Position numbers and translations under genes: made by a program
Notes under the pieces: model-generated
Seen by the model: only the letters and a program-made list of their open reading frames with translations
The model's database searches: none
What the model was told of the DNA's origin: nothing
Shown here: positions 5,281-30,271 of the stretch, piece by piece
Layout of the letters: each line of letters begins with the position of its first letter
Numbering within the stretch: position 1 is the stretch's first letter
Source of the DNA: Candidatus Harpocratesius repetitus
Lineage (GTDB): Archaea; Asgardarchaeota; Lokiarchaeia; Sigyniarchaeales; Promethearchaeaceae
Length of the DNA: 32,000 bases
Reading direction: 5' to 3'
Assembly: GCA_021498095.1 (NCBI GenBank)
Contig: JAIZWK010000001.1
Span: 2,940,001-2,972,000 of the forward strand

Positions 5281-5343
5281 TTTATATGTATTTGCATTTT
5301 CATTGCAAATTGTTTATATTTGTATTTGCATTTTCATTGCAAA
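5281..5343. repeat. Direct repeat of 23 bp, each copy an imperfect palindrome TTTGCA-N7-TGCAAA
   Basis: TGTATTTGCATTTTCATTGCAAA at 5287-5309 and 5321-5343. The second copy overlaps the flavoprotein stop codon. Confidence 0.9.
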
Positions 5344-5999
5344 ATATTCATTTTTTTTTTTCCTAATTTTTCTCCCATTAACAATGCTTTACGCATCAAT
5401 TTCTCTTTTTTATTTGAATTAAATTGAAATAAAGTATCTGTATATATAATTTTTCCAACTACAGAGCCATTTAACTTCTTTACATATCTTTTCATAGCAT
5501 TTATTGCAGGTGAAATCTCGTTCATTAAATATCTGAAAGGTACTGTGGCAGCAGTTATTAAAATGTAGCGTTTGTATTTGAAATCTTCATATTTTGGCCC
5601 GAAGTTGGAAATACTTTCAAACAATTTTTTAATTTTTTCCCATTTGGTTAATTTATAAAATTTATCGGCATTTTTTGGATTATACATGGCATATCCGGTA
5701 TGTCGATCAAAAAAGCTTTTCATAATTCCTGTTATGTTTGCCCAATATACAGGACTTCCAAGAATAATTATATCTGCTTCTCGCAATTTTTGAAAAATTA
5801 AATTAAAATCATCTTGTAAAATACATGTTCCAATATTTGAACAAGCCCAACATGATTTACAAAAATCAATCTTGTAATCATATAAATATATAATTTCACC
5901 GATATTTCCTTTCTTTTCTGCACCTTTAATAATTTGTTTTGCAATTGTACTAACATTTCCTCTTTTTAACGGAGACCCGATTATTGCAAGAATTCTCAT
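5334..5999 (-). CDS. Iron-sulfur flavoprotein (Isf) / NADPH-dependent FMN reductase family
   Basis: IIGSPLKRGN flavodoxin loop; CKSCWAC-x5-C 4Fe-4S motif; ILGSPVYW...MKSFFDR. Confidence 0.88.
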   Translation of the reverse strand: MRILAIIGSPLKRGNVSTIAKQIIKGAEKKGNIGEIIYLYDYKIDFCKSCWACSNIGTCILQDDFNLIFQKLREADIIILGSPVYWANITGIMKSFFDRHTGYAMYNPKNADKFYKLTKWEKIKKLFESISNFGPKYEDFKYKRYILITAATVPFRYLMNEISPAINAMKRYVKKLNGSVVGKIIYTDTLFQFNSNKKEKLMRKALLMGEKLGKKKMNILQ

Positions 6000-6098: not shown

Positions 6099-6554
6099 AT
6101 GCGTGAAAATGAACGAGAAACATTCAAAGAACTAATTAATCTTTTTCCTCAAATAATTCAAACATCAAATCTTTGTATTCAGCGCGAATTACATAATTTT
6201 ACTCATAATAAGAAAAGAATTGACATGGAACGAAAAGATTTAAAGCAAATAATCTCGATTATTCAAGGTAAATGGACCTTGGAAATACTTTATATAATTC
6301 GAATATATAGAACAATTAACTTTAATGAAATAAAAAAACACTTAACAAAAATTAGTTCAACAATCTTGGCGAAAAGATTAAAAAAGCTAGAAGATCTACA
6401 AATGATTCAAAGATCTATTATTGATGTTCATCCTATACGCGTTTTTTACTCATTGTCGCACTTCGGTTCAAATTTCGTTCATTTAATGCTTCCAATATTC
6501 ATCTATTCCCTCACAGAAATTCATTTCCCAGAAAAAGAAAAAAAAAGAAGTTAG
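6099..6554 (+). CDS. HxlR-family winged-helix transcriptional regulator (real start may be ATG 6225)
   Basis: IIQGKWTLEIL...FNEI...ISSTILAKRLKKLE...P.RVFYSLS.FG; divergent from the flavoprotein gene. Confidence 0.88.
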   Translation: MRENERETFKELINLFPQIIQTSNLCIQRELHNFTHNKKRIDMERKDLKQIISIIQGKWTLEILYIIRIYRTINFNEIKKHLTKISSTILAKRLKKLEDLQMIQRSIIDVHPIRVFYSLSHFGSNFVHLMLPIFIYSLTEIHFPEKEKKRS

Positions 6555-6631: not shown

Positions 6632-7912
6632 CTACTTAACTAATACTTTTTCGATTTGCTCTAAAGCCCAATCAATTTCTTCTTTTTTAATAACAATGGG
6701 AGGTGCAAATCTGATTGTAGTAATATGAGTATCTTTTGCTAAAATTCCGTGTTCTTTAAATTGTTCAACAAATTGGCGCGCATTTCCATCAAATTCTACT
6801 GCAATTAACAAACCGCGCCCTCGGACTTCCTTAATAGGTACTTTAGTTTCTTTGGATGCTATTTTTCTTAAGCCTTCTTGAAAATATTCACCCAATTCAG
6901 CTGCGCGCTCTGCTAATTTCTCATCGATCAATATATCTAATGCTTTAGATGCAACTGCACAAGCTAGGGAATTTCCACCAAATGTACTTCCATGAGTTCC
7001 TGGTTTAATTACTTCAGGTCCGACAATATCTGCATTAGTTACAATAGCAGAAACCGGATATACTCCACCACCTAAAGCTTTCCCAAGGAGGAACATATCT
7101 GGCTTTACATTCTCGTGATCTAGTGCAAATAATTTACCAGTGCGACATAACCCAGATTGAATTTCATCTGCAATCATTAACACGTTGTATTTTGAACAAA
7201 TTTCACGGACTTTAGTGTAGTATCCTTTTGGTGGAACCTTAACACCTGCTTCACCTTGGATTGGCTCAAATAAGAATGCAGCAACATTTTCTGGACCTAA
7301 TTTTAAAATTGTATCTTCTAATTCTTGAGCATCACCATAGGAAATGATTTCGAAACCTGGAGTAAACGGTCCAAAATTTCCATAGTAATTTCCATGCTGG
7401 ATATCTGTGCTGAAACCAACAATTGTTATCGTTCTTCCGTGAAAATTATCGCGACAAACAATAATTTTTGCTTGATTTTTCGGAATATTCTTTTTAATAT
7501 ATCCCCATGCGCGTGCAACTTTTAATCCAGTTTCTACAGCTTCTGCCCCAGTATTCATTGGTAGAGCCATAATTCCAGAATTCTTCGGATCATTTAGATG
7601 AGGCCCGACTACTTCACAGAGTTTTTTCAAGTAAGGACCCATTTGATCATTACAGAAAGCACGTGAAGTAACAGCTACTTTTTTAATTTGTTCTTCCATA
7701 GCTTTTATGATTTCTGGATGGCAGTGTCCCATATTTTGACTGGAATATGCTGAAAGACAATCTAGGTATTTTCGACCTTCTGGATCCCAGACCCAGCATC
7801 GTTCTGCTCGAGAAATTACCACTTCTAAAGGATGATAATTATGTGCACCATATTTATGATCCATTTCAATATATTCTTGTGATGTTGGCATGATATTCAC
7901 CATATTTTTCAT
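6632..7912 (-). CDS. rocD: Ornithine aminotransferase (class III PLP)
   Basis: YGAHNYHPL, LSAYS..N.GHCHP, MNTGAEAVET, FHGRT, EPIQGEAG, DEIQSGLCRTG, LGKALGGG (PLP Lys), HGSTFGGN. Confidence 0.93.
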   Translation of the reverse strand: MKNMVNIMPTSQEYIEMDHKYGAHNYHPLEVVISRAERCWVWDPEGRKYLDCLSAYSSQNMGHCHPEIIKAMEEQIKKVAVTSRAFCNDQMGPYLKKLCEVVGPHLNDPKNSGIMALPMNTGAEAVETGLKVARAWGYIKKNIPKNQAKIIVCRDNFHGRTITIVGFSTDIQHGNYYGNFGPFTPGFEIISYGDAQELEDTILKLGPENVAAFLFEPIQGEAGVKVPPKGYYTKVREICSKYNVLMIADEIQSGLCRTGKLFALDHENVKPDMFLLGKALGGGVYPVSAIVTNADIVGPEVIKPGTHGSTFGGNSLACAVASKALDILIDEKLAERAAELGEYFQEGLRKIASKETKVPIKEVRGRGLLIAVEFDGNARQFVEQFKEHGILAKDTHITTIRFAPPIVIKKEEIDWALEQIEKVLVK

Positions 7913-7932
7913 AAAATTAAAAAAATTCCTAT

Positions 7933-8844
7933 TTACTCTAAGTAAAAGGAAGTTCCAGCTTTACCTAGTAATGACGCTTTAATATTGTCGATAGAAGTAA
8001 TAATTGCTTGCTCTCCACCTTCTTCTAAGAAATTAATACAAGCTTGAATCTTAGGACCCATACTCCCAGCAGGAAATTGCCCTTCTTCTAAGTATTTCTT
8101 TGCATCTGATACTGAAAGTCGATCTAATCTGATTTCATCTGGTTTACCAAAATTAAGAGCGACTTTTTCTTCATCAGTTGCAATTATTAGAATATTTGCT
8201 CCAATTTGTGCACCTAAACGTGCTGTTGCTAAATCTTTATCAATAACTGCTTCGACACCCTTGATTTTTTTATTTTCCTTAATTACAGGAATTCCACCGC
8301 CACCACATGCAATTACAATAAAATTATCTTCAATAAGTCGCTTAATTTCCCGATATTGGAAGATCTTATGAGGTTTTGGTGAAGGAACAACACGTCTCCA
8401 TCCTTTAGATGTATGAACAAAACCTGGTTTTGGATGTTCATAGGCAGGACCAATTGGCTTAGTTGGATTCTGAAAAGCAGGATCATCTTTTTTAACTTGA
8501 GTGTAGGTCAAAACGGTTAAAAATAATTTAGCTTTGTTCAATCCAATTCTCATAAGTTCTTCATCTAAGGTAGATTCAATCATAAATCCAATTTGACCTT
8601 GTGTTTGTGCTCCAATAATCGAGAGGGGCATTTTTGGAACTTCATCACATGCTTCTTGTTGAAGTAGAAGATTTCCTGACTGAGGACCATTACCGTGAGT
8701 TATAACAATTTGATAATCACGTGAGAGCTCGGCAATTTGGCGAACAGGCATCCGGATATTCGCTAATTGCTCCTCTGCAGTTCCCCGTTGACCTTTCTGA
8801 ATTAAAGCATTTCCTCCCAAAGCTACGATAAGTGTTTTCATCAT
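7933..8844 (-). CDS. arcC: Carbamate kinase
   Basis: VALGGNAL, THGNGPQ, KPIGP, GGGGIPV, AVIDKD, GSMGPK. Confidence 0.96.
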   Translation of the reverse strand: MMKTLIVALGGNALIQKGQRGTAEEQLANIRMPVRQIAELSRDYQIVITHGNGPQSGNLLLQQEACDEVPKMPLSIIGAQTQGQIGFMIESTLDEELMRIGLNKAKLFLTVLTYTQVKKDDPAFQNPTKPIGPAYEHPKPGFVHTSKGWRRVVPSPKPHKIFQYREIKRLIEDNFIVIACGGGGIPVIKENKKIKGVEAVIDKDLATARLGAQIGANILIIATDEEKVALNFGKPDEIRLDRLSVSDAKKYLEEGQFPAGSMGPKIQACINFLEEGGEQAIITSIDNIKASLLGKAGTSFYLE

Positions 8845-8896
8845 TTTTCACCTGTTGCCATAATCTTTTTTTTAATAGAGACTAAATTATTCCTAC

Positions 8897-9853
8897 TTAA
8901 TTCATTAGATTGAGTAAGAATAGAATAATTGCTTTTTGCACATGCAGCCGATTTTCTGCTTGATCAAACACTATTGATTGTGGACCATCAATTACTTCAG
9001 CAGTTTCTTCATAGCCACGTTTCGCGGGCAAGCAGTTCATAAATATACAATCGGGTTTAGCTGCTTCCATTACCTTGGAATTAACTTGATAAGGCATCAA
9101 ATCCTTTACCCGTTTTTCTTCTTCTTCTTTAGGAATCCCATAAGACATCCAAGAATCTGCATAAATAATATCTGCATCATGTGCACCTTCCATCACATCA
9201 TGAACCACACGAACAACAGCACCTGTATCTTTTGAAATTTCCTTACATTCATCAATTACTTCTTGTTCAGGTGCATATTCAGGATCTGATGGACAAACAA
9301 CATCCATTTTCATTCCAAACATTGCGCACATTCGCATTAAGTCATAAGTAACGTTATTTCGACAATCACCATAAAATGACAGTTTTAAGCCATCGAAAGT
9401 GCCCTTCTTTTCCTTTATTGTTTGGAAATCACATAAGATTTGACAAGGATGTGCAAAATCATCTAACATATTAATTACAGGAACGCCAGCATTTGCAGCG
9501 ATTTTTTGTATTTCTTCTCTCTTAAAAACTCGAGCTGCAATCATATCTACATATCGAGACGCACATTTTGTTGTATCTTCAATAGTTTCTTTGACCCCTA
9601 AGGGAGAATCTTTTACTGAATAGAAAATCGCATGTCCACCTAATTGTTCCATTCCAGTTTCAAAAGAAACTCGAGTTCGCAAAGAAGGTTTTGCGAATAG
9701 CATTAAAAGAGTTCGATTCTTTAATTTTGAAGTATATTTTGGATTCCAACGATCTGCTTTCATTTGAATTGCGTAATCAATGATCTGTTCACATTCAGCA
9801 CGTGTAAAATCCGTTACTTTAGTTAAATGTCGTAAAGCCATATTTTTCACCAT
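8897..9853 (-). CDS. arcB: Ornithine carbamoyltransferase, probably catabolic
   Basis: FAKPSLRTRVSFE, HPCQ, DSWMS, FMNCLPA, FDQAENRLH; adjacent to carbamate kinase. Confidence 0.94.
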   Translation of the reverse strand: MVKNMALRHLTKVTDFTRAECEQIIDYAIQMKADRWNPKYTSKLKNRTLLMLFAKPSLRTRVSFETGMEQLGGHAIFYSVKDSPLGVKETIEDTTKCASRYVDMIAARVFKREEIQKIAANAGVPVINMLDDFAHPCQILCDFQTIKEKKGTFDGLKLSFYGDCRNNVTYDLMRMCAMFGMKMDVVCPSDPEYAPEQEVIDECKEISKDTGAVVRVVHDVMEGAHDADIIYADSWMSYGIPKEEEEKRVKDLMPYQVNSKVMEAAKPDCIFMNCLPAKRGYEETAEVIDGPQSIVFDQAENRLHVQKAIILFLLNLMN

Positions 9854-9895
9854 TTTTTTCTCTTTTTTAGGAAAGTAATTTTTGTTTATTTTTTG

Positions 9896-9913
9896 TCGAT
9901 ATTATTGTATCGA
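9896..9913. promoter_or_regulatory. Operator-like palindrome TCGATA-N6-TATCGA upstream of arcB
   Basis: Perfect 6-bp inverted repeat lying between a minus-strand TATA-like tract (about 9940-9950) and the arcB start. Confidence 0.4.
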
Positions 9914-10044
9914 TAATAATACCTTCTTTCTCTTTAATCTATAATATATTTTGAGAAATTAAAAAAAAGAACTCGATAAATAACTTTACTAAGTCATTCA
10001 TCAATTCTTGTTATTTTTAAATTACTTTTTTATGTGTTTTTCAA

Positions 10045-11394
10045 TTATTTCTTTACATATTTTTCGATGAATTCATCAAGCATTGATTCGATTGAAGGAG
10101 TGCCGATGCATTCAATATCATAGTCAATTCTAACAATTGGCTTATTACATTTAATCAATCGGCTTAAATCAATAGGACTTCCATCAATTACAACATCAGC
10201 TGGAATGGCATTAATTGTGGCTTCTAAATCTTTGATTTGATTTTCATCATATCCCATAGCAGGTACAATTTCTTGTAATTGCTTAAATTCTTCAAAGATT
10301 TTCTTCTGTGATCCTTGTAAATAAGGCTTTGGATCAACAATTTCACAATTATTTTGTTTGGCTGCAATATATCCTGCACCAATTGCCATATGTCCATGTG
10401 TTAAAGTTGGACCATCTTCAACCACAACGACTTTCTTGTTTTTAATCAAATCTGCTTTTCCATCTTGAACTGTTACAACAGAATTACTTCGGATAACAGG
10501 TGCATTTGGATTTAATATTTTCAAATTATCTTCAACAATTTTAACATCTTCTGGTTTAGCAGAATTTAATTTATTTAGTACAAATGCTTCACAAATTCGA
10601 GCGTTTACTTCTCCAGGGTAAAATTTCAGTTCATGTCCTGGTCGTAAAGGATCTACAACTGTGAACATTAAATCTGGGACATAAAATGAGATTTCATTAT
10701 TTCCACCATCAAAGACAATAATATCAGCTTCTTTTTCGGCTTCCTCTAAAATTTTACCATAATCAACACCAGAATAAATTACTAATCCTTGTTCAATATA
10801 TGGTTCATATTCTTCACGTTCCTCAATTGTGCATTTATATTTATCCAAATCTTCATATGTAGCAAATCGCATACAAGTTTGTTCAACAAGATCACCGTAT
10901 GGCATAGGTTCACGCACAGCTACGACTTTATATCCCTTTTCTTTTAAATATCGATAAGTAGCTCGAGAAACTTGAGATTTACCACATCCTGTTCGCACAG
11001 CTGTAATTGCAACAACTGGTTTTTTGGATTTAATTTGAGTAAAGCGGGGGCTGATTAAACGATAATTCGCTCCAGCTGCTAATGCTCGAGCACCTTTATG
11101 CATAACATCTTCATGAGCAACATCACTATACGCAAAAACAACTTCATCAATTTGATTTTCTTTAACGAAATCAACCAAATTTGTTTCAGGAATCATTGGA
11201 ATTCCATCTGGATATAATTTTCCAGCTAATTCAGCAGGATATTTACGTTCAACACCTTCTAAGGTACCCACATTTTGTTCTCCAGCCATCGTAAAGGCGC
11301 GTACATCATATTCCTCATTGTCTCGGAAAACTGTGTTAAAACAGTGAAAGTCAAATCCGAGAGCACCAATAATAACAACTTTTTTTCGTTCCAT
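10045..11394 (-). CDS. arcE: ArcE-like arginine synthetase (cyclic 2,3-diphosphoglycerate synthetase-like P-loop NTPase family)
   Basis: VVIIGA.G.DFH.FN, YPAELAG.LYPDGIP, AVRTGCGKS P-loop, REPMPYG, EEREEYE, DGGNN, VEDGPTLTHG, PAMGY. Context is OTC plus carbamate kinase with no arcA. SD GAGGA at 11401-11405. Confidence 0.8.
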   Translation of the reverse strand: MERKKVVIIGALGFDFHCFNTVFRDNEEYDVRAFTMAGEQNVGTLEGVERKYPAELAGKLYPDGIPMIPETNLVDFVKENQIDEVVFAYSDVAHEDVMHKGARALAAGANYRLISPRFTQIKSKKPVVAITAVRTGCGKSQVSRATYRYLKEKGYKVVAVREPMPYGDLVEQTCMRFATYEDLDKYKCTIEEREEYEPYIEQGLVIYSGVDYGKILEEAEKEADIIVFDGGNNEISFYVPDLMFTVVDPLRPGHELKFYPGEVNARICEAFVLNKLNSAKPEDVKIVEDNLKILNPNAPVIRSNSVVTVQDGKADLIKNKKVVVVEDGPTLTHGHMAIGAGYIAAKQNNCEIVDPKPYLQGSQKKIFEEFKQLQEIVPAMGYDENQIKDLEATINAIPADVVIDGSPIDLSRLIKCNKPIVRIDYDIECIGTPSIESMLDEFIEKYVKK

Positions 11395-11505
11395 ATTAAT
11401 TCCTCAATTTTCATTGTGTATTTCTTAATTTTTATGCAATTTCTACGATTTATAATGTATTGCAGATTCTCATCTATTTTTATTATAGATTAAGTTAATA
11501 GCAAT

Positions 11506-11674
11506 GAATAAAAATGACTCCGCTTTATTCGTTTAAACGTAAAATACGTTCACAAATGAAGGGAGGAAATCTATGAACGAGCAGTGAGAGTGGGGTAGCG
11601 AGTTCTCACAAGACCCCAATACCAAAAAGATCTCGTTCACACTTCTAAATATTATCTCCTAAGTGTGTTCATTT
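11506..11674 (-). ncRNA. Putative structured leader RNA (attenuator/riboswitch-like) or sRNA upstream of arcE
   Basis: Core 11574-11640 is about 49% GC (33/67) in AT-rich DNA. Helices: 11574-81/11632-39, 11584-89/11604-09 and 11591-96/11613-18 (crossing, i.e. pseudoknot), 11638-44/11661-67, 11536-41/11545-50, 11506-12/11524-30. Strand inferred from context. Confidence 0.55.
11652..11672 (-). CDS. Putative leader peptide MNTLRR
   Basis: ATG AAC ACA CTT AGG AGA TAA. Two Arg codons directly before the stop, upstream of an arginine catabolic cluster. Confidence 0.3.
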   Translation of the reverse strand: MNTLRR

Positions 11675-11681
11675 AACCTTC

Positions 11682-11696
11682 TATTTAAAATTTCTG
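11682..11696 (-). promoter_or_regulatory. BRE-TATA promoter candidate (CAGAAAT TTTAAATA)
   Basis: Matches the archaeal BRE cRnaAnt plus TTTAAATA; predicts a start site near 11655-11660. Confidence 0.5.
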
Positions 11697-16819: not shown

Positions 16820-16920
16820 TATTGGTAAGAATGAAATGATGTAGAAAATATTTATTATTATATTCTAATACAAATGGATACACAATTGCAGATATTCAAT
16901 ATTAATCTTAGTTGAAAAAA

Positions 16921-17889
16921 ATGATAACATATCAAGATATTCAGCAAGCATATCAGCGAATTAAATCTGAAATTAATCATACTCCTGTAATGACTTCCAG
17001 AATGCTGAATAAAGATTTAGGAGCAGAAGTTTACTTTAAATGTGAGAATTATCAACGAGTGGGAGCTTTTAAATTTCGAGGTGCTTTTAATGCCATCAGT
17101 CAACTTTCTCATGAGCAGAAAAAGTTAGGAGTTGTTACTCATTCAAGTGGGAATCATGCTCAAGCTGTGGCATTAGCCGCTTCTATATTACATATTCCAG
17201 CTACAATTGTTATGCCTGAAAACTCCCCTAAAGTAAAAATAAATGCAACTCAAAATACTTACGGAGCCCGAGTTGTTTTATGTAAGAATACTGTTCAATC
17301 CAGGCAAGAAACATGCCAAAGAATAATGGAAAATGAAGGTCAAACCTTAATTCATCCTTATGATAATGATGAAATAATTGCTGGAGCAGGGACAGCTGCT
17401 TATGAATTGCTGTTAGAAGTTAATGATCTTGACATAATAATTACTCCAGTTGGTGGCGGAGGATTACTAAGCGGAACCAGCATTGCTGCCAAAGGATTCA
17501 ATCAAAATTGCGAAATTTATGCAGGAGAACCTTTAAATGCCGATGATGCATATCGTTCATTAATTTCAGGAAAAATTCAAACCAACAAAAATCCAATAAC
17601 GATTGCAGATGGACTTCGAACTAATTTATGCCCTCGAACATTTCAAATCATCCAAAATAATGTAAATGCAATAGTTCGTGTATCAGAGAAGGAAATCATT
17701 AGTGCAATGCGTTTTCTATGGGAAAGAATGAAATTGGTTGTTGAACCATCCAGCGCAGTTCCCTTGGCTGCATTAAAAACTGGAGAAATCGAAATCAAAG
17801 ATAAAAAAATTGGAGTAATTTTAAGTGGGGGAAATGTCGATCTTAATGCATTTTTTGAATATCTATCTTCATACATTGCTGAAAAATGA
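16921..17889 (+). CDS. PLP fold-II serine racemase / Ser-Thr (or 3-hydroxyaspartate) dehydratase, no ACT domain
   Basis: FKCENYQRVGAFKFRGA (PLP Lys), VVTHSSGNHAQA, PVGGGGL, TIADGL, VEPS, ILSGGNVD. ATG 16921 is preferred over TTG 16912. Confidence 0.88.
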   Translation: MITYQDIQQAYQRIKSEINHTPVMTSRMLNKDLGAEVYFKCENYQRVGAFKFRGAFNAISQLSHEQKKLGVVTHSSGNHAQAVALAASILHIPATIVMPENSPKVKINATQNTYGARVVLCKNTVQSRQETCQRIMENEGQTLIHPYDNDEIIAGAGTAAYELLLEVNDLDIIITPVGGGGLLSGTSIAAKGFNQNCEIYAGEPLNADDAYRSLISGKIQTNKNPITIADGLRTNLCPRTFQIIQNNVNAIVRVSEKEIISAMRFLWERMKLVVEPSSAVPLAALKTGEIEIKDKKIGVILSGGNVDLNAFFEYLSSYIAEK

Positions 17890-17911: not shown

Positions 17912-18697
17912 GTGAAAATCGGATATATTCAGTTTAATCCTGTTTTTGGAGAAAAAGAAACAAATTTTCATACTGTAGAAAAAATAACTAAAGGAGTAAA
18001 AGCTGATTTACTGGTACTTCCAGAATTATTTGCTACAGGTTATACTTTCAATTCAAAAATCGAAGCGGAACAAATGTCGGAAAAACAAGGTGAAGAAACA
18101 ACCAATTTTTTGCAAGATCTTTCATCGTCTACTAGAGCTATTTTAGTTGGAGGATTCATTGAGAAAATTAATAATAAAATCTTTAATGCTGCTTTAGTGG
18201 TAAATGAGAAGCAAGTAATTGGCATATATGAAAAAGTTCATCTTTTTTACAAAGAGAAACTTTGGTTTGAGCCAGGTAATAGGGGATTTCAAGTCTGGAA
18301 ATTTCAGAACTGGAATCTTGGTGTGATGATATGTTTTGATTGGATATTTCCCGAATCTTGCAGATCACTCTCATTACAAGGAGCGGACATTATTGCCCAT
18401 CCTGCAAATTTAGTCCTTCCCTATTGTCAACGCTCTATGATAACCAGAAGCTTAGAAAATCGTGTCTTTACCATTACTGCGAATAGATTCGGTAAAGAGC
18501 ATCGTGGACAAGATAATTTTTCATTTTCTGGAGGTTCACAAATTACTGATCCAAGTGGAAATGTGCTCATTTCAGCAGAAAAAAATGAGACCAAAGTTGA
18601 TATTGTTGATATAGATCCTTCTGTAGCACATAATAAACAGATGAACGAATACAACAATCTTTTTAAAGATCGGAGAAATCAATATTATTTTTTATAA
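17912..18697 (+). CDS. Carbon-nitrogen hydrolase (nitrilase/amidase family)
   Basis: Catalytic triad motifs LPELF, YEKVHLF, ICFDWIFPE; ENRVF..TANRFG; GTG start with SD AAGGAGG. Confidence 0.92.
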   Translation: MKIGYIQFNPVFGEKETNFHTVEKITKGVKADLLVLPELFATGYTFNSKIEAEQMSEKQGEETTNFLQDLSSSTRAILVGGFIEKINNKIFNAALVVNEKQVIGIYEKVHLFYKEKLWFEPGNRGFQVWKFQNWNLGVMICFDWIFPESCRSLSLQGADIIAHPANLVLPYCQRSMITRSLENRVFTITANRFGKEHRGQDNFSFSGGSQITDPSGNVLISAEKNETKVDIVDIDPSVAHNKQMNEYNNLFKDRRNQYYFL

Positions 18698-23185: not shown

Positions 23186-26100
23186 TTAAAATCCTCCTCC
23201 TTGTTTTTGGTCTTCAGAACCAATTTTAGATTCCATTTTGACAGCTTTTGGACCTTTTAAGTCTAAAATATCTTCTAAATCTAGATCAAGGAATTTCCAA
23301 GCATTTCCATACTTATCAGCAAGAAGTTCGTGATAACTACGCATAATTGGGTCATCACTTATTGTTGCATTTTTACTTATTTCCTTCATAGTCTGATCGA
23401 TCTTCTTAATTGTTTCAGGAATTCTAAGATATCGAATATACTTTGTGCTACCAACAATAGCAATTGCAATTAAAGCTACACTTCCACCAATATATACGAA
23501 TATTTTCGGAATATGAGTACCTGCAATTACATATTCTGGAGGTGTTATTGAAATTGTGATAGTGTAGGGATTAATTGAATAGTTTGCTTTCTGGATGTAA
23601 ATTGTTGCAGAGTCAGTAATAGCAGAAATCAATGCATTATATTCATCAGTATCAGTTTTAATAATATATTCATATACTCCAGGCTGTTTCTCTTCAAAAG
23701 AATATGTTTTTCCTCTATAATTCATAGTAACAGTAGCATTTGTCAATGGTTGATTATTATTCACTGGATCTGTCAAAGTTAATTGGATGATTATATCTTC
23801 ACCTTGTGGTTGGGATACTACATTATCTTGTAACTCCGATGGAACTGCCAATTTTACAGGTTTTGGTTCGATTTGTATTGTGATTGAACCAGCTCGTTCT
23901 AGATAATTTGCCTTACCCATATGAATTATCAAAAGGTAAGTACCAATTGATCTATTTGCAGTATCGAAATCTAAAAGATAGATTCCATTCCCTAACTCTT
24001 GAAGCTGACCGATTTGAGTTTCACCACTAACTTCCCATTCATAATAAGCTAAATCCGCATTTTCAATTCCATTTCCAATTGCATCTTCATAAGTAATCAT
24101 GAAAAGATGTTCTGTAGTTACATTTATCTTCAAAGTATTTTGTAAAAAGATGGAATTATTAATAGTTGTTTCAATTCGATTGATATCTACATAAATACTT
24201 AATGTTTGAGTTGTATATTGTGATTTAGCTGCTTGGATATGAATTGTATATGTTCCAACTCCGAGGAATTGGGTTGAATTGAATGTTATTTCATAATGAC
24301 CGCTACCTGTATGAATTAAATCTCCAGTAAAATCGGCAATCTGTCCTACAGAATATGTAATTAATGCATTTGTAATTGGAATGTCATTTACAAGATCTTC
24401 ATATAGAATACTAATGGTGAAATTTTCATTCCAAGTCAAGGAATAATCAACAGAATAATCACTCGTCATGTTAGTTGTTACAGTTAGAACATTTACTGTA
24501 ATTAGAACTTCACGAGCACCATAAGTCGATTTAGAGGCAGAAATAATAAATGTATAAGTGCCAGTTTGTTCTAAAAGTGTACTTGAAAATTCAATTAGAT
24601 AAATCCCAGATCCTTGGCCGATTAAGTTCCCAGTAAAACTAGAATCATCTGTAAGAGTATAAGTAACAGAAGCATTATTTATTGCTACAGGGTTATTCAA
24701 ATTTGTAACATTCATATATTGAACCTGAAGTATAATATTTTGTGTCCAATAGAGTGTGATTTCTTCATTTGAAGCATTAAGTTGAGTTGGAATTAAACCA
24801 ATATCAACAATTATGCTTAATTGTTTCGTTTCATATTGATTCTTCGTTGCAGTGACCAAAAATGTAAAAGTCCCTTGTCCAAAATCGTCAGCATTCAATG
24901 TAATATTGTACCAACCACTCCCAGTATGAGAAATTACTCCTGTATCAGAAAAACCATTTGGTCCTGTAACTTCATATGAGACAGTTGCATCAGATGTAAT
25001 TGGTATAGGAGTTCCTGTTTCATTGTTTTGATAAAGTAAAGCGAGAGTAAAGGAATTACCTAATTGAACTACGATTGATTCATCTACTGCAGTTAATGAA
25101 GTCGGGATAGTTGCAACTTCGACTGTAATAGTTAAGTTACGTGTTAAATAATGGTTTTTCTGAGCAATAATGTTATATACATATGTTCCTTTCTCTGGTA
25201 AATCTTCAGATGGATTAAAGGATTTTAAATAAACTCCATCGCTTAAATGTGTTAAAAATCCAGAACTTGTATATCCATTAGGACCAATTACAGTGTACGT
25301 AATTGTTCCATCAGTTATTGGAACAGTACTTGCTCCATGAGTATCTTCAAATGTACAATTTAATATATAATCATTTTCCCAAGCAACTGAAATCAATGTG
25401 CTTTCTGGTGTCAATCTTGTGGTGATTTGTTTTACATTTACAATAATGGAAATTCGCTGAGTTTCATATTCAGATTTACTTGCTTCAATTTGGATAGTAT
25501 AAGATCCTGTGGTTCCAAACATAGTTGAGCTGAAATCTTTTGAGTAATATCCGTTGCTTTGGAAATCTAAGGTACCTACAAGACTATCCATTCCAGAAAC
25601 ACTATAAGATACAGATGCATCTGTTGAGATCGGGATTGGATTTTGCGAATCGGAAACATCTTCATATGTGACTCCTAGAGTGAAAAGCTCTCCCCAATAT
25701 ATATCAATGGTTGTTGCATCAGGAGTTAAACTAGTTTGTACAATTGCTATGTCAACAGAAATTGTGAGAACTTGAGTTTCATATTGATTTTTTGTAGCAG
25801 TGACTACAAAAGTATATGTTCCCGCTTCAGGAAAAGTATGATTCTCTGCACTATATGTTATATTATAATCACCATTTCCTGTGTGGGATAACTGAGTATG
25901 ATTTTCATAACCATTTGGTCCTGTAAAATCAACAGATACATTTCCATCTGTAATAGCTACAGCCGCACCTCTAATATCCATAAATGTTGTTGAGATTGTA
26001 AAACTTTCTCCCCATGTTATTGCAATATTAGATTCTGGAGTAGTAAACTCTGTAGGAACAATTGATATATCAACAGTTATCCATACTTGACTTGTTTTGT

Positions 26101-29100
26101 AAAATTCCTTTTCTGCTAAAATTTGGAAATTATATTCACCTGCTTGTCCGAAATCAGTACTATTTAAGGTAATGCTGTAAATTCCAGGAGTTGCAGTTTC
26201 AGTCAATGGATGCGGTGTAAAAGTTGGATCTCCGAAAATATAATAATAGACATCGGCCCCACTTATTGCATAATTATTTACAACATCTGTATAATTTATT
26301 GTAAATGTAAAGTTCTCTTCCCAATAAAGTTCTATAGGATCAATGTAATCTGCACTGTTAATTGAAGTGTTTATCTCTTTAATAATTAAATCAAATGAAA
26401 GCGTCTGAGAACTATAATTCACATGACTAACATCAAAATTTATTTGATATTGTCCCAAACTTGCTACTTTAGATGTGTTTATTGAGAAGGTATAGTTTGT
26501 ATATCCACCACCACTTACTTCACTCATAGCTTGATTTGAATCATAATCCCAATCAATGGTTGCGGTGGCGCTGCCGACATCTGCAGAATTTGCTTGGTAA
26601 ACTAAAGTGACAGAGACTTGAGTACCATAATAAACTTCAAGAGTAGAACCTATAAGAGATGATTCAGTATAGACCGCTGCAGTTGTAGCAATGGGATTAA
26701 TTGTTATTGTTTTTACAAGAGGTGTTGGATCTCCGCCATATCCTGTAGTCGATGCCCAAACACTCAATTGAAAAACATTACTTGCTTCATCCACCGAAAT
26801 TCCATCCTTTTCAGGATTGATTTGAATACGATAAATTCCAGTACTTATTCGAGTAACACTTGCATTATAATAAACTTCTTGTAAGGTTTCTACATTTTCT
26901 AAACGAACTCCTACTGAATCAGCATTAAATAATGTAGCTGGATTTGTTTTATAAGAAACAGATACATTTATGTCAAAGGATAGTGTGCTTGAAAAATCGA
27001 AGTTGGTTGGAATCGCTGTGATATTTGTAAGATATGTTTGGTAATCATCAGGGTATATAGAGACATTAAATGTAACCTCATTATATCCAGCTAAAGTAAA
27101 ATTATAGGAATCCACAAAACTTCCAGTATCACTAGCATTTTTAAAAGTTTTTTGACTTCCGCCATAATAAACATAAGCGGTATAGTTTCCCTGTGAAGGT
27201 GATCCATCTTTCAACTTATACCAAAAATTGAATCCAAATGAATCTTGAGCAACACCAAGTTCATCACTTGTTAAATTAACTAATGAAACACCATTTTGAA
27301 CAATTTCTACCATTGCACCTTCAATATTAACTCCATCAGGATCAACTACAGTAATTTTTTGCTGAGCAATAGGGATTTCTACATCTTTTACATAAGTTTC
27401 CTGTAATTCCATATAAATTTGACCATATTGAACAATATTTGAATCATTATGAGTGCGAATCTTGATATTTAATCCATAAATTGGTTTAACATAATTCCAG
27501 AGATAATATTCTTCTGACCAATCTTTGACATTATTTCCAGTAAAATCTTCAGTGTATGTTTTTAGTAGATTAAATCCACCTTGATTATCTAAACCATAAA
27601 CATCAACTCTAGAAATATATGAACTAATATTAGAGAGAGAAATATTCCACCAATTTATCGATTGGTCACCGATTTGATTAATAGAAGTCCCAGTAGTTCC
27701 ATTTGCATAAATGAACCATTGATATTCATAATCTCCACCGGTTAAATCAGTTGGAACACTTGCATTTAGATCATGAGTTGCTTCAGTTAGTGCTTGTTGA
27801 TCTAAGGAACTATTAAGAATAGGTGTAATTGATGGGTTGTAATTAGTATTTTGATAATCAATAGAGAAATTATATTCATTTCCAGGATTTCTATTTAACC
27901 AAATTGCAGTCGCTTCACCAGAACCGTCTAAATTATATTCAGCAAGATTTGAAGTATCACCCCATGTTCCTTCATAAAGTGTTAGATTTCCAAGACTTAC
28001 GGGGTTATTATCTACATCATGTACTTTGAAATGAATTTGCCAGAGATCTGAATCAATAATAAATGTTTCCCTAGTATTATTAATTGTAACTGTCCCTGAA
28101 AATATTGAATGATTCCCAAATTGATTTTGGATTGAAACATTTAAGTTGTAGGTTGAAAAATCAAGATCTGCAAATTGTGCTGTTCCATCAGATGAACTTA
28201 TTAAGATTTCAGAATAATCCCCTGGACCGTTTTTATTATCTAGTATCACACCTAAATTGGAAATTGGATACTTATCAACATCATAAACTTGAATTGTAAG
28301 ATCTGGTGGCTTAATTTGTGAGGAATAAGTTGAAATTTCAGGTGCAGCTGCAAGTATACGAGAATCATATGCACCAAAAATATTTGTCATTTGACTAGAA
28401 TAAACATAATAATTTCCGATATAATATCCTTCTTCAGGACTTTGCCATTCGGGATTTGTCATATCAGATTGTTCCCAAACTGATATCCGCCCATCATAAT
28501 ATGTACTTGTATCAGGTCCACTATAACAATTAGCAATTATTTCCATCATTCCATCGTTGTCTGGATCGCCAAATCTTGGAAATGTGATTCTTGAATACAA
28601 AACATCTTCTTTATACCATTCTATTTGTCCTAAATTGATTGAATTATCTCCCTCAACTTCATAAACTCGAATAGTAGTTGAATTTGTATTCTCACTATTT
28701 CCCATTAATACTTCCATATTACCATCATTATCCCAGTCTGCAACATCAGAAACAATACCATTTGGTGTATTTGTTATAAAATTAGCTTTCCAATCTAGTG
28801 CAGTTCCATTCCATTCCCATAAATGAATATAACCATAATAATTTCCACCTAGTAAAACCTCAATTTTTCCATCAAAGTCAATATCTTCAGCAATTATTGA
28901 ATAAACATATCTAGGAATATGTCGATCAGTGTTATTACTTGTATAACCATACCAATCATAAGAACTCGTAGTAGTATTATATAGAAAATATCCAAATCCA
29001 TAATTTCCTGCATAATTACCTACTACTATATCCATCCAACCATCATTGTTAAGATCAACTAAAGATGCATGCATTATTCGATATGGAAGAATTAAGCGAT

Positions 29101-30271
29101 TTTCGATATACATCGTTTTATTTGAGTAAATTCCATAAATTACGATAGAATATTTACTATTTGCATCATAACCATAATCAGGTGCTATGATTTCTGTTTT
29201 TCCATCATGATCCATATCCCATGCATAAATATCATAATGAGTACTACCGTATGTGGTATTTAATCCTTCAAAATAATAACGTGTGTTCCAAATAGATTGC
29301 CACTGACCTGTTTCGCTGTTATAATCAACAAATTTAAAATCATCATTTATATCATTCATTACTAATTCTACATTGCCATCACCATCAAAATCACCTGCTG
29401 CCATATCAAAAAAGTTCTGCAAATAATCATATTGGCGTGGTTCTCCCATGGTTAAAGAGAGATCTTCATCCCAAATGGTTAATTCACCATATCCAATATC
29501 TGCGCTTTTTCGATAACTACCATAGGCTAAATGATAATTCCCATCACTCACTGGGTCAGAATACCAATTGTAGTTAGTTTTCCAAGTTAAAGCTGAGTCA
29601 AGAGAATCTTTCGGACCATTTGATACAATATCAAAATAAACCATCAAGGTTACATTAGTATTTGCTTCCATCATTCCAGGAATTTCAATCCATAATCGAC
29701 CAGTTGCATTATTCAAAGCATTGAAAACATTTTCTGTGGGAATGAATAACGATTTTAAAAGATACTGTTTCGAATCAGAGTAACTTGAGTTTGCAACAAT
29801 CATAGAACCTGAAGCATCATATTGAATCACTCTGATGGAATTTTCATCAAATTCCTCCGATGATAAACTTAAATCGCTTAAAATCGAAGTAAAATTAAGA
29901 TATAAATTAATTGAATAGTTTGTTCTATTATAGAAGGATGAATTTACTTCTATAGGAAAACGATATGTCCAATCAGTGCTCCACCATTCATAATCTAATC
30001 CAGAATCGTAATTTGCAGAACTTGCAGGATTAAATTGGGGTGCTTGGATATCATTTATCGGCGAAAATTCTGATTCATCTGAAAATGTATCTCCATTGAA
30101 ATAAGTCAAAGGAGAACTCTGAGATGACTCAGAATTAGAAGAAATTGCGATATTCACATTCCAAGTTGATAAAGAAAGTAGAAATATCACAATTATACCC
30201 GAAATATAACGAGAGTTCTTAGAATTCATATGAAAACCACTTATCATTGAACTTTTGATTAAATGAATCAC
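23186..30271 (-). CDS. Giant secreted, membrane-anchored surface protein: signal peptide, DUF2341-like domain, FG-GAP/VCBS beta-propeller, carboxypeptidase-regulatory-like domains, about 11 Ig-like repeats, TM helix, about 85-aa cytoplasmic tail
   Basis: Six DxDxDG-type motifs (GDFDGDG, DMDHDG, DLNNDG, DIDFDG, DWDNDG, DPDNDG); about 100-aa repeats with W.E.FT...Y.D and G.Y..I.A.K..Y; many NxS/T sequons; TM IFVYIGGSVALIAIAIVGS. Start may be ATG 30229. Confidence 0.88.
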   Translation of the reverse strand: MIHLIKSSMISGFHMNSKNSRYISGIIVIFLLSLSTWNVNIAISSNSESSQSSPLTYFNGDTFSDESEFSPINDIQAPQFNPASSANYDSGLDYEWWSTDWTYRFPIEVNSSFYNRTNYSINLYLNFTSILSDLSLSSEEFDENSIRVIQYDASGSMIVANSSYSDSKQYLLKSLFIPTENVFNALNNATGRLWIEIPGMMEANTNVTLMVYFDIVSNGPKDSLDSALTWKTNYNWYSDPVSDGNYHLAYGSYRKSADIGYGELTIWDEDLSLTMGEPRQYDYLQNFFDMAAGDFDGDGNVELVMNDINDDFKFVDYNSETGQWQSIWNTRYYFEGLNTTYGSTHYDIYAWDMDHDGKTEIIAPDYGYDANSKYSIVIYGIYSNKTMYIENRLILPYRIMHASLVDLNNDGWMDIVVGNYAGNYGFGYFLYNTTTSSYDWYGYTSNNTDRHIPRYVYSIIAEDIDFDGKIEVLLGGNYYGYIHLWEWNGTALDWKANFITNTPNGIVSDVADWDNDGNMEVLMGNSENTNSTTIRVYEVEGDNSINLGQIEWYKEDVLYSRITFPRFGDPDNDGMMEIIANCYSGPDTSTYYDGRISVWEQSDMTNPEWQSPEEGYYIGNYYVYSSQMTNIFGAYDSRILAAAPEISTYSSQIKPPDLTIQVYDVDKYPISNLGVILDNKNGPGDYSEILISSSDGTAQFADLDFSTYNLNVSIQNQFGNHSIFSGTVTINNTRETFIIDSDLWQIHFKVHDVDNNPVSLGNLTLYEGTWGDTSNLAEYNLDGSGEATAIWLNRNPGNEYNFSIDYQNTNYNPSITPILNSSLDQQALTEATHDLNASVPTDLTGGDYEYQWFIYANGTTGTSINQIGDQSINWWNISLSNISSYISRVDVYGLDNQGGFNLLKTYTEDFTGNNVKDWSEEYYLWNYVKPIYGLNIKIRTHNDSNIVQYGQIYMELQETYVKDVEIPIAQQKITVVDPDGVNIEGAMVEIVQNGVSLVNLTSDELGVAQDSFGFNFWYKLKDGSPSQGNYTAYVYYGGSQKTFKNASDTGSFVDSYNFTLAGYNEVTFNVSIYPDDYQTYLTNITAIPTNFDFSSTLSFDINVSVSYKTNPATLFNADSVGVRLENVETLQEVYYNASVTRISTGIYRIQINPEKDGISVDEASNVFQLSVWASTTGYGGDPTPLVKTITINPIATTAAVYTESSLIGSTLEVYYGTQVSVTLVYQANSADVGSATATIDWDYDSNQAMSEVSGGGYTNYTFSINTSKVASLGQYQINFDVSHVNYSSQTLSFDLIIKEINTSINSADYIDPIELYWEENFTFTINYTDVVNNYAISGADVYYYIFGDPTFTPHPLTETATPGIYSITLNSTDFGQAGEYNFQILAEKEFYKTSQVWITVDISIVPTEFTTPESNIAITWGESFTISTTFMDIRGAAVAITDGNVSVDFTGPNGYENHTQLSHTGNGDYNITYSAENHTFPEAGTYTFVVTATKNQYETQVLTISVDIAIVQTSLTPDATTIDIYWGELFTLGVTYEDVSDSQNPIPISTDASVSYSVSGMDSLVGTLDFQSNGYYSKDFSSTMFGTTGSYTIQIEASKSEYETQRISIIVNVKQITTRLTPESTLISVAWENDYILNCTFEDTHGASTVPITDGTITYTVIGPNGYTSSGFLTHLSDGVYLKSFNPSEDLPEKGTYVYNIIAQKNHYLTRNLTITVEVATIPTSLTAVDESIVVQLGNSFTLALLYQNNETGTPIPITSDATVSYEVTGPNGFSDTGVISHTGSGWYNITLNADDFGQGTFTFLVTATKNQYETKQLSIIVDIGLIPTQLNASNEEITLYWTQNIILQVQYMNVTNLNNPVAINNASVTYTLTDDSSFTGNLIGQGSGIYLIEFSSTLLEQTGTYTFIISASKSTYGAREVLITVNVLTVTTNMTSDYSVDYSLTWNENFTISILYEDLVNDIPITNALITYSVGQIADFTGDLIHTGSGHYEITFNSTQFLGVGTYTIHIQAAKSQYTTQTLSIYVDINRIETTINNSIFLQNTLKINVTTEHLFMITYEDAIGNGIENADLAYYEWEVSGETQIGQLQELGNGIYLLDFDTANRSIGTYLLIIHMGKANYLERAGSITIQIEPKPVKLAVPSELQDNVVSQPQGEDIIIQLTLTDPVNNNQPLTNATVTMNYRGKTYSFEEKQPGVYEYIIKTDTDEYNALISAITDSATIYIQKANYSINPYTITISITPPEYVIAGTHIPKIFVYIGGSVALIAIAIVGSTKYIRYLRIPETIKKIDQTMKEISKNATISDDPIMRSYHELLADKYGNAWKFLDLDLEDILDLKGPKAVKMESKIGSEDQKQGGGF
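23193..23200 (-). promoter_or_regulatory. Shine-Dalgarno GGAGGAGG embedded in the last codons of the giant gene
   Basis: ...GGA GGA GGA TTT TAA ATG: the stop directly abuts the start of the 380-aa gene. Confidence 0.8.

What the first reader, a model, noticed from the sequence alone, without database searches (positions are those of the whole stretch)
6632..11394. Arginine catabolic cluster without arginine deiminase: arcE-arcB-arcC-rocD
Seen: four co-oriented genes encoding a cDPG-synthetase-like P-loop protein, OTC, carbamate kinase and ornithine aminotransferase. No arcA and no arcD antiporter lie in the window. Established (from memory): in Thermococcus kodakarensis the ArcE arginine synthetase converts Arg + ADP + Pi to citrulline + NH3 + ATP, so ArcE-ArcB-ArcC can yield 2 ATP per arginine versus 1 for the deiminase route. 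Inference: this Asgard archaeon conserves energy that way and passes ornithine to glutamate semialdehyde via RocD instead of exporting it. That would fit an amino-acid-fermenting lifestyle.
Basis: partly seen in the sequence, partly recalled or inferred. Interest (0 to 1): 0.72.

Follow-up and report, generated by a model that had tools for sequence, protein, structure and literature searches.

The report
Asgard arginine synthetase (ArcE) gene cluster
This Asgard archaeon carries arcE-arcB-arcC-rocD, a pathway described in 2024 that breaks arginine down with two ATP gained; it is a sound but ordinary new member of that pathway.

Summary
Four co-oriented minus-strand genes at 6632-11394 encode ArcE, ornithine carbamoyltransferase, carbamate kinase and ornithine aminotransferase.

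The 449-aa P-loop protein has no Pfam or NCBIfam hit. Its model matches the characterised T. kodakarensis arginine synthetase ArcE (Q5JHM5) over the full length: 56% identity, TM 0.95. True cDPG synthetases reach only 13-18% identity and TM 0.45-0.50.

The closed 4.36-Mb genome shows no arginine deiminase, arginase, argG/argH, carbamoyl-phosphate synthetase, ornithine or proline synthesis genes, or ArcD antiporter. It does have pyrB and hypF. The cluster therefore most likely runs catabolically and is also the only recognisable source of carbamoyl phosphate, as in Thermococcus.

The four genes stay together in related Promethearchaeum contigs. ArcE homologues occur in 248 of 301 Asgard genomes searched, and the 2024 paper already lists Lokiarchaeota. 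This scan has noted ArcE clusters in at least 83 other genomes, some with rocD.

Open points:
- No known enzyme is found for RocD's product: no ALDH, proC, proA or ornithine cyclodeaminase.
- An oligo-T run after arcE suggests two transcription units.
- A lineage-restricted structured leader precedes arcE.

Verdict: a new member of a known kind, of modest interest.

The parts
10045..11394 (-). arcE, arginine synthetase (449 aa; P-loop motif RTGCGKS at residues 134-140)
   Evidence: AlphaFold model pLDDT 92.8. Best Swiss-Prot structural match is Q5JHM5, ArcE of T. kodakarensis: 56% identity, TM 0.95/0.96, rmsd 1.7, full length. cDPG synthetases reach 13-18% identity and TM 0.45-0.50. Single copy in the genome.
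8897..9853 (-). arcB, ornithine carbamoyltransferase (318 aa)
   Evidence: TIGR00658 374 bits (cut-off 280.85); Pfam OTCace_N plus OTCace. It is the only OTC-type gene in the genome besides pyrB.
7933..8844 (-). arcC, carbamate kinase (303 aa)
   Evidence: TIGR00746 371.5 bits (cut-off 358.25); Pfam AA_kinase.
6632..7912 (-). rocD, ornithine--oxo-acid (delta) aminotransferase (426 aa)
   Evidence: TIGR01885 518.3 bits (cut-off 378.4); Pfam Aminotran_3 over the full length. It follows arcC in L044 (91% identity) and L047 (86%).
9961..9968 (-). oligo-T run (T8) about 75 nt after the arcE stop; probable archaeal termination signal between arcE and arcB
   Evidence: Sequence read. A run of T7-T10 is kept at the same place in four related loci. 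Its function is inferred.
11680..11693 (-). TATA-box-like block AAATTTTAAATAGA; probable arcE promoter
   Evidence: Nearly invariant across five related upstream regions: 13 of 14 positions, with position 12 G or T. Its function is inferred.
11505..11649 (-). conserved structured 5' leader of arcE: a 13-bp long-range helix and a 4-bp helix, each enclosing a stretch whose sequence varies (a hairpin by single-sequence folds and eye), then GAGUCAUUUUUA
   Evidence: Six sequences give an RNAalifold consensus with 99% of cells paired. Three pairs change on both sides, but this is a single event between two clades. No Rfam match. The covariance model finds nothing upstream of arcE in the 29 loci from other Asgard genomes that were searched.

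Best explanation
The cluster encodes the arginine synthetase pathway, extended by ornithine aminotransferase, and runs in the direction of arginine breakdown.

Proposed steps:
1. ArcE: arginine + ADP + Pi -> citrulline + NH3 + ATP. Inferred from orthology.
2. ArcB: citrulline + Pi -> ornithine + carbamoyl phosphate.
3. ArcC: carbamoyl phosphate + ADP -> ATP + carbamate (-> CO2 + NH3). Part of the carbamoyl phosphate is diverted to PyrB for pyrimidines and to HypF for [NiFe]-hydrogenase maturation, because the genome has no carbamoyl-phosphate synthetase.
4. RocD: ornithine + 2-oxoglutarate -> glutamate 5-semialdehyde/P5C + glutamate. Glutamate dehydrogenase regenerates the 2-oxoglutarate.
5. 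The fate of the semialdehyde is unknown. My guess, with low confidence, is oxidation to glutamate by one of the six aldehyde:ferredoxin oxidoreductases.

arcE probably has its own promoter, structured leader and oligo-T terminator. arcB-arcC-rocD probably form a second transcription unit.

Shown here: gene identities, orthology to the characterised enzyme, conserved synteny, and the genome-wide gene inventory. Inferred: reaction direction, ATP yield, transcription units and step 5.
For: ArcE orthology:
- 56% identity, TM 0.95, full length to the biochemically characterised Q5JHM5, on a model with pLDDT 92.8.
- Walker-A-type RTGxGK[S] is nearly invariant in 36 homologues.

The other three genes pass curated equivalog cut-offs.

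Linkage:
- The four-gene order is kept in L044 (87/85/84/91% identity, unrelated flanks) and L047. It is kept in part on the truncated contigs L048, L050 and L052.
- A natural carbamate kinase-ArcE fusion exists (P0131).

Genome inventory, closed 4.36-Mb genome:
- No ADI, argG (16), CPS (17) or true argH (18).
- No argC, proB or proline dehydrogenase (68-70), nor proA (37). There is thus no recognisable source of ornithine other than arginine.
- The only arginase-family gene is agmatinase-like and sits beside deoxyhypusine synthase.
- pyrB and hypF are present, so carbamoyl phosphate is needed.
- GDH in 3-4 copies and AOR in 6 copies are present.

Literature:
- Reaction, equilibrium and the two-ATP yield: PMC11032458.
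- The pathway as carbamoyl-phosphate source in CPS-less Thermococcales: PMC13260591.
Against: - There are no expression or biochemical data for this organism.
- The ArcE reaction is close to equilibrium (delta-G0' -6.8 kJ/mol at 80 C) and reversible in vivo in T. kodakarensis, so direction cannot be read from sequence.
- No arginine importer was identified.
- RocD's product has no recognised consumer: no ALDH family member at all, and no proC, proA or ornithine cyclodeaminase. The RocD step as written ends in an unexplained intermediate.
- In 16 of the 20 other Asgard loci examined, no arcB or arcC lies within about 7 kb of arcE. Where one does, it is 5-7 kb away in three loci and adjacent (arcC) in one. 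The tight cluster is therefore a lineage feature rather than a rule.
Confidence: 0.8

Rival explanations
1. The cluster works biosynthetically. Carbamate kinase makes carbamoyl phosphate, OTC makes citrulline, ArcE makes arginine from citrulline + ATP + NH3, and RocD supplies ornithine from glutamate semialdehyde.
For: The genome lacks argG and argH, so this would be its only route to arginine. ArcE is reversible and supports growth on citrulline in T. kodakarensis. The 2024 paper proposes a biosynthetic role in some bacteria.
Against: No source of ornithine or glutamate semialdehyde is found: argC, proA, proB and proline dehydrogenase are all missing in the own genome and in both same-genus genomes. 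The bacteria proposed as biosynthetic have CPS and ornithine synthesis; this genome has neither.
Confidence: 0.1
2. The main physiological role is anabolic rather than energetic. Arginine is sacrificed to supply carbamoyl phosphate for pyrimidines and hydrogenase maturation, and ornithine/P5C for proline. ATP gain is incidental.
For: CPS is absent while pyrB and hypF are present. In T. kodakarensis, arcE and arcB deletions cause pyrimidine auxotrophy and loss of hydrogenase-dependent growth, whereas arcC deletion has little effect. proA, proB and proC are absent, so proline has no recognised synthesis route.
Against: arcC, which only dissipates carbamoyl phosphate for ATP, is kept inside the conserved cluster. 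No P5C reductase is found to finish proline synthesis. The two roles are not mutually exclusive.
Confidence: 0.25
3. The first gene is a cyclic 2,3-diphosphoglycerate synthetase or a GTPase, as public annotation of its close homologues says, and is merely adjacent to arginine genes.
For: Source names on homologues read 'cyclic 2,3-diphosphoglycerate synthase' and 'GTPase'. There is a remote fold relationship to cDPGS.
Against: Identity to 13 reviewed cDPG synthetases is only 13-18%, with TM 0.45-0.50. That set includes T. kodakarensis's own cDPGS (Q5JDW8). ArcE of the same organism gives 56% identity and TM 0.95. Synteny with arcB and arcC is conserved.
Confidence: 0.01

Closest known systems
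Arginine synthetase pathway of Thermococcus kodakarensis (ArcE TK2200/Q5JHM5, ArcB, ArcC; Michimori et al. 2024, PMC11032458; 2026, PMC13260591)
   Same: ArcE orthologue (56% identity, same fold). OTC and carbamate kinase are present. The genome likewise lacks ADI, argG/argH and CPS while keeping pyrB and hypF, which implies the same dual role: ATP gain and carbamoyl-phosphate supply.
   Different: According to earlier notes of this scan (not checked here), the three T. kodakarensis genes bear distant locus tags (TK2200, TK0871, TK2158) and so are scattered; here they are clustered. An ornithine aminotransferase gene is added here. Ornithine cyclodeaminase and every known P5C-converting enzyme are missing. 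The host is a low-GC (about 31%) Asgard archaeon and probably not a hyperthermophile. A conserved structured leader precedes arcE.
Classical arginine deiminase pathway (arcA-arcB-arcC with arcD antiporter)
   Same: The OTC and carbamate kinase steps, and the overall conversion of arginine to ornithine, CO2 and 2 NH3.
   Different: No arcA and no arcD are present. The first step is replaced by an ATP-forming P-loop enzyme, giving 2 ATP rather than 1. Ornithine is apparently metabolised rather than exchanged.
Bacterial ArcE-OTC-carbamate kinase(-transcarbamylase)-RocD operons noted earlier in this scan (e1-5231546, e1-1232799)
   Same: ArcE, OTC, carbamate kinase and an ornithine aminotransferase in one cluster without ADI.
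   Different: Those are bacterial and often carry an extra ATCase-like transcarbamylase, which is absent here. I did not re-examine those loci.
Cyclic 2,3-diphosphoglycerate synthetase (e.g. Methanothermus fervidus, PDB 8oru/8ork) and LpxK (PDB 4ehy)
   Same: Remote homologues with the same P-loop core. They are the nearest solved structures, as the 2024 paper also reported for LpxK.
   Different: 13-18% identity and TM below 0.5 over the whole chain, with a different substrate. Not the same family.
Bacillus-type arginase route (RocF-RocD-RocA)
   Same: RocD-type ornithine aminotransferase (TIGR01885) downstream of ornithine formation.
   Different: No arginase and no P5C dehydrogenase or any ALDH family member.

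Membership tests
Arginine synthetase ArcE (TK2200/Q5JHM5 family) | Full-length sequence and fold similarity to the biochemically characterised T. kodakarensis enzyme | tested here: met
   56% identity, TM 0.95/0.96, rmsd 1.7, residues 2-449 against 5-448 of 448.
Arginine synthetase ArcE (TK2200/Q5JHM5 family) | Clearly separate from cDPG synthetases | tested here: met
   13-18% identity, TM 0.45-0.50 to 13 reviewed cDPGS; phmmer E 0.003 to PDB 9sxb.
Arginine synthetase ArcE (TK2200/Q5JHM5 family) | P-loop (Walker A) nucleotide-binding motif | tested here: met
   RTGCGKS at residues 134-140. R134, T135, G136, G138 and K139 are at least 90% conserved in 36 homologues.
Arginine synthetase ArcE (TK2200/Q5JHM5 family) | Genomic association with arcB and/or arcC, and absence of arcA | tested here: met
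   Adjacent arcB and arcC here and in five related contigs. A natural CK-ArcE fusion, P0131. No PF02274 hit in the own genome.
Arginine synthetase ArcE (TK2200/Q5JHM5 family) | Catalyses Arg + ADP + Pi <-> Cit + NH3 + ATP | not testable with these tools
   Needs an enzyme assay.
Ornithine carbamoyltransferase (TIGR00658) | Score above the curated equivalog cut-off; both OTCace domains | tested here: met
   374 bits against 280.85. It scores below the cut-offs for putrescine, N-acetylornithine and aspartate carbamoyltransferases.
Carbamate kinase (TIGR00746) | Score above the curated equivalog cut-off | tested here: met
   371.5 bits against 358.25.
Ornithine--oxo-acid transaminase RocD/OAT (TIGR01885) | Score above the curated equivalog cut-off; class-III aminotransferase fold | tested here: met
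   518.3 bits against 378.4. The ArgD, GABA-AT and putrescine-AT models all score below their cut-offs.
Classical ADI pathway (arcABCD) | Arginine deiminase (arcA, PF02274) | tested here: not met
   No match in the closed genome.
Classical ADI pathway (arcABCD) | Arginine/ornithine antiporter ArcD (APC type or DcuC type) | tested here: not met
   TIGR03810: no match. PF03606: no match in the three genomes of the genus.
Cyclic 2,3-diphosphoglycerate synthetase | Close similarity to characterised cDPGS | tested here: not met
   No second paralogue in the genome.

The most novel reading that the evidence does not exclude
The roughly 145-nt conserved, structured leader in front of arcE (11505-11649) ends in a stem followed by an oligo-U run. 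It could be a metabolite-sensing or protein-binding transcription attenuator that gates arginine breakdown, responding to arginine, citrulline or adenylate charge. That would be a riboswitch-like control element specific to a cultivable Asgard lineage. Separately, the RocD product would have to be consumed by an as yet unrecognised enzyme, for example an aldehyde:ferredoxin oxidoreductase acting on glutamate semialdehyde.
Probability: 0.15. Interest if true: 0.7.

Novelty: new member of a known kind. Interest (0 to 1): 0.3.

Why it matters
The finding gives a concrete, testable account of arginine use in a closed Asgard genome whose near relatives are named Promethearchaeum. Arginine would yield two substrate-level ATP, and it would be the only recognisable source of carbamoyl phosphate for pyrimidines and for maturation of the [NiFe] hydrogenases. 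If so, arginine supply is a nutritional dependency worth considering when cultivating these slow-growing archaea.

It also shows that public annotation of this gene in Asgard genomes ('cyclic 2,3-diphosphoglycerate synthase', 'GTPase') is wrong and should read arginine synthetase.

The pathway itself was published in 2024 and Lokiarchaeota were already listed as carriers, so the conceptual gain is small.

Tried and rejected
Two cluster look-ups of 20 representatives gave no Thermococcus names. The question was settled instead by the Swiss-Prot fold search.
- No supplementary files are held for the 2024 paper.
- RNA evidence for co-transcription: no RNA holder was listed.
- Rfam at gathering thresholds and tRNA scans of the window found nothing.
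- The sigma-70 promoter and intrinsic-terminator scan was at background level and is not suited to archaea.
- A covariance model of the leader, searched over the window and 41 further loci (29 of them arcE loci from other Asgard genomes), found nothing convincing outside the training clade.
- A pattern hit in an 'Anaerolineaceae' MAG contig (L051) turned out to be a Shine-Dalgarno sequence plus start codon of an unrelated gene on the other strand. It is probably chance.
- The leader block as a plus-strand small ORF: rejected, because the 4-15-codon frames are not conserved (read).
- The Arg-Arg uORF (MNTLRR) attenuator idea from note e1-5448896: the uORF is not conserved. Relatives read MYSNRK, MQLSSNHKSEV or M-stop.
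- The PF02274 count in the phylum (153 of 301) is inflated by short or weak amidinotransferase-like hits. Only about 7-10 genomes have full-length, strong ADI-type matches, and most of these also have ArcE, so strict complementarity does not hold in Asgard.
- Literature searches for arginine synthetase or carbamate kinase in Asgard archaea found nothing specific. The MK-D1 isolation paper does not mention arginine.
Full report
**Observation**

The window is G000:C1:2940001-2972000 of a closed 4.36-Mb genome.

| Coordinates | Length |
|---|---|
| 10045-11394 | 449 aa |
| 8897-9853 | 318 aa |
| 7933-8844 | 303 aa |
| 6632-7912 | 426 aa |

The last three pass curated equivalog cut-offs:
- Ornithine carbamoyltransferase, TIGR00658: 374 bits against 280.85.
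- Carbamate kinase, TIGR00746: 371.5 against 358.25.
- Ornithine--oxo-acid transaminase, TIGR01885: 518.3 against 378.4.

The first protein (P0001) matches no Pfam or NCBIfam model. Against PDB sequences it finds only a cDPG synthetase, at E 0.003.

**Identity of the first gene**

I aligned P0001 with 35 homologues (A1). The AlphaFold model has mean pLDDT 92.8 and pTM 0.91.

Foldseek against reviewed UniProt models gives these matches:
- Rank 1 is Q5JHM5, 'Arginine synthetase ArcE' of Thermococcus kodakarensis: 56% identity, TM 0.95/0.96, rmsd 1.7 A, over the full length.
- The next 13 hits are cDPG synthetases, including T. kodakarensis's own Q5JDW8: 13-18% identity and TM 0.45-0.50.
- LpxK kinases follow.

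The PDB search agrees, with cDPGS 8oru at TM 0.46 and LpxK 4ehy next. The 2024 paper also found LpxK as the structural neighbour of TK2200.

The P-loop RTGCGKS (residues 134-140) is nearly invariant in the family. The gene is single-copy, and the genome holds no cDPGS-like paralogue.

The gene is an arcE orthologue. Public names on its close homologues ('cyclic 2,3-diphosphoglycerate synthase', 'GTPase') are misannotations.

**Linkage of the four genes**

- A same-genus genome (G094, contig L044) has arcE-arcB-arcC-rocD in the same order at 87/85/84/91% identity. Its flanks are unrelated: a histidine kinase, an HD domain protein, an Fe-S assembly protein and a MutS-like protein.
- Promethearchaeum sp. 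MAG contigs show RsmB-leader-arcE-arcB-arcC(-rocD) (L047, L048, L050).
- A metagenome contig carries arcE-arcB at 93/91% identity (L052).
- A natural fusion protein joins a carbamate kinase domain (TIGR00746, 340 bits) to ArcE (P0131).

Outside this lineage the genes are usually not adjacent. In 20 other Asgard loci with about 7 kb of flank on each side, arcB or arcC was nearby in only four.

**Transcription units (inference)**

The gaps between genes are 191, 52 and 20 nt. The 191-nt arcE-arcB spacer carries a T8 run at 9961-9968. A run of T7-T10 is kept at the same place in four related loci, and oligo-T is the usual archaeal termination signal. AT-rich, TATA-like sequence follows it.

I therefore think arcE and arcB-arcC-rocD are two units. 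No RNA data could be found to check this.

**Genome context and direction**

Families with no match above their cut-offs, in the closed genome:

| Family |
|---|
| Arginine deiminase |
| Argininosuccinate synthetase |
| CPS large subunit (only weak ATP-grasp hits) |
| Argininosuccinate lyase (77 bits against 279.5) |
| APC-type ArcD |
| DcuC-type ArcD |
| proC |
| proA |
| Any ALDH family member |
| Ornithine cyclodeaminase |
| argC |
| proB |
| Proline dehydrogenase |

The calls from 68 onward, including, also covered the two other genomes of the genus.

The only arginase-family gene is agmatinase-like and lies next to deoxyhypusine synthase. It belongs to polyamine/hypusine metabolism.

Families that are present:
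- pyrB, 366 bits.
- hypF, 711 bits.
- Three to four glutamate dehydrogenases.
- Six aldehyde:ferredoxin oxidoreductases.

Two consequences follow:
- With no route to ornithine or glutamate semialdehyde other than from arginine, the biosynthetic direction has no substrate. The catabolic direction is much the more likely.
- With pyrB and hypF present but no CPS, the ArcE/ArcB steps are the only recognisable source of carbamoyl phosphate. This is exactly the situation shown genetically for T. kodakarensis (PMC13260591).

**Mechanism**

Taken from PMC11032458:
1. ArcE converts arginine + ADP + Pi to citrulline + NH3 + ATP (delta-G0' -6.8 kJ/mol at 80 C).
2. OTC phosphorolyses citrulline.
3. Carbamate kinase yields a second ATP.

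Here RocD would then transaminate ornithine to glutamate 5-semialdehyde/P5C, with GDH recycling 2-oxoglutarate.

The weak point is the next step. No P5C dehydrogenase, P5C reductase, ProA or ornithine cyclodeaminase exists in the genome. I suggest oxidation by an AOR, which is pure inference. An unrecognised reductase making proline is equally open.

**Distribution and prior knowledge**

- ArcE homologues at E <= 1e-20 occur in 248 of 301 Asgard genomes sampled.
- Full-length, strong ADI matches occur in only about 7-10 of 301.
- The 2024 paper already lists Lokiarchaeota among arcE carriers.
- This scan has notes on ArcE clusters in at least 83 other genomes, including bacterial operons with RocD.
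- I found no paper discussing the pathway in Asgard archaea specifically.

The finding is thus a correct annotation of a known pathway in a lineage where it is common.

The 580-nt region upstream of arcE contains blocks that are invariant or nearly so across two sub-clades:
- A TATA-like AAATTTTAAATAGA at 11680-11693.
- A roughly 145-nt element at 11505-11649.

Within the element:
- GAAGUGUGAACGA pairs with UCGUUCAUAGAUUUC. This is a 13-bp helix enclosing a stretch whose sequence differs between the clades; single-sequence folds and inspection suggest a hairpin there.
- CUCC pairs with GGAG. This helix encloses a second variable stretch, also a likely hairpin.
- GAGUCAUUUUUA follows.

Across six sequences, 99% of cells pair. 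Three pairs change on both sides, but that is a single evolutionary event between the two clades, so the support is weak.

There is no Rfam match. A covariance model finds nothing convincing upstream of arcE in other Asgard families.

The Arg-Arg uORF proposed in note e1-5448896 is not conserved.

The element looks like a lineage-specific cis-regulatory leader with a terminator-like 3' end. What it senses is unknown.

**Side observations from the ArcE tree**

In a tree of 47 sequences, rooted at the midpoint for drawing only, Asgard ArcEs fall into two groups:
- The window's type clusters with homologues at 68-74% identity. These are one same-family and one same-order locus, plus MAG proteins that NCBI labels Loki-, Hermod-, Hod- and Odinarchaeota.
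- The ArcEs from the other loci tested sit with Thermoproteota-like sequences.

The ichthyosporean Creolimax homologue (P0130) branches next to the window's type with 100/98 support. Green-algal homologues (Pycnococcus, Pseudoscourfieldia) and an intein-containing ArcE also exist. I did not pursue these.

**Verdict**

This is a new member of a known kind, of modest interest (0.3). The open questions are the fate of RocD's product and the function of the arcE leader.

Noticed in passing
window 11505-11649 (-), promoter-like block 11680-11693: A conserved structured leader lies upstream of arcE, ending in a stem plus oligo-U. It is present in six related Promethearchaeum-type sequences and not detected upstream of arcE in other Asgard families. 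The Arg-Arg uORF proposed for it is not conserved.
   Followed up: partly
whole genome G000: The closed genome has no aldehyde dehydrogenase (PF00171) family member at all, and no proA, proB, proC, ornithine cyclodeaminase or proline dehydrogenase. Both proline supply and the fate of glutamate semialdehyde are unexplained.
   Followed up: partly
P0131 (766 aa, metagenomic): A natural fusion of a carbamate kinase domain (residues 3-309) with an ArcE domain (329-754). This is Rosetta-stone support for the functional link between the two enzymes.
   Followed up: partly
P0130 (Creolimax fragrantissima), P0287-P0289 (Pycnococcus, Pseudoscourfieldia); tree: Eukaryotic ArcE homologues exist. The ichthyosporean one groups with the window's (Loki-type) ArcE clade at 100/98 support, apart from a second Asgard ArcE type that sits with Thermoproteota-like sequences. 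Direction of transfer, or contamination, was not examined.
   Followed up: partly
P0194 (806 aa): An ArcE homologue interrupted by an intein with a LAGLIDADG homing-endonuclease domain.
   Followed up: no
homologues P0003, P0008, P0023 and others: NCBI names for Asgard ArcE orthologues are 'cyclic 2,3-diphosphoglycerate synthase' or 'GTPase'. No Pfam or NCBIfam model covers the family yet.
   Followed up: yes
window 16912-17889 (+) and 17912-18697 (+): An adjacent pair: a PLP-dependent serine/threonine or hydroxyaspartate dehydratase-like enzyme (below equivalog cut-offs) and an archaeal nitrilase-family C-N hydrolase. This may be another amino-acid deamination module.
   Followed up: no
window 23186-30271 (-): A giant 2361-aa protein with FG-GAP repeats and a weak MG2 (alpha-2-macroglobulin-like) hit, followed by a 380-aa ORF with no family.
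   Followed up: no
window 6099-6554 (+), 5334-5999 (-): An HxlR-type regulator lies convergent with rocD, next to an NADPH-dependent FMN reductase-like gene. Neither was found on the related contig L044, so they are probably not part of the arginine cluster.
   Followed up: partly
L051:3125-3226 (JAYFNV010000118.1, 'Anaerolineaceae' MAG): An exact match to two leader blocks, but there it is the Shine-Dalgarno sequence plus ATG of a large secreted protein on the opposite strand, with no arc genes nearby. It is probably a chance match in AT-rich DNA.
   Followed up: partly
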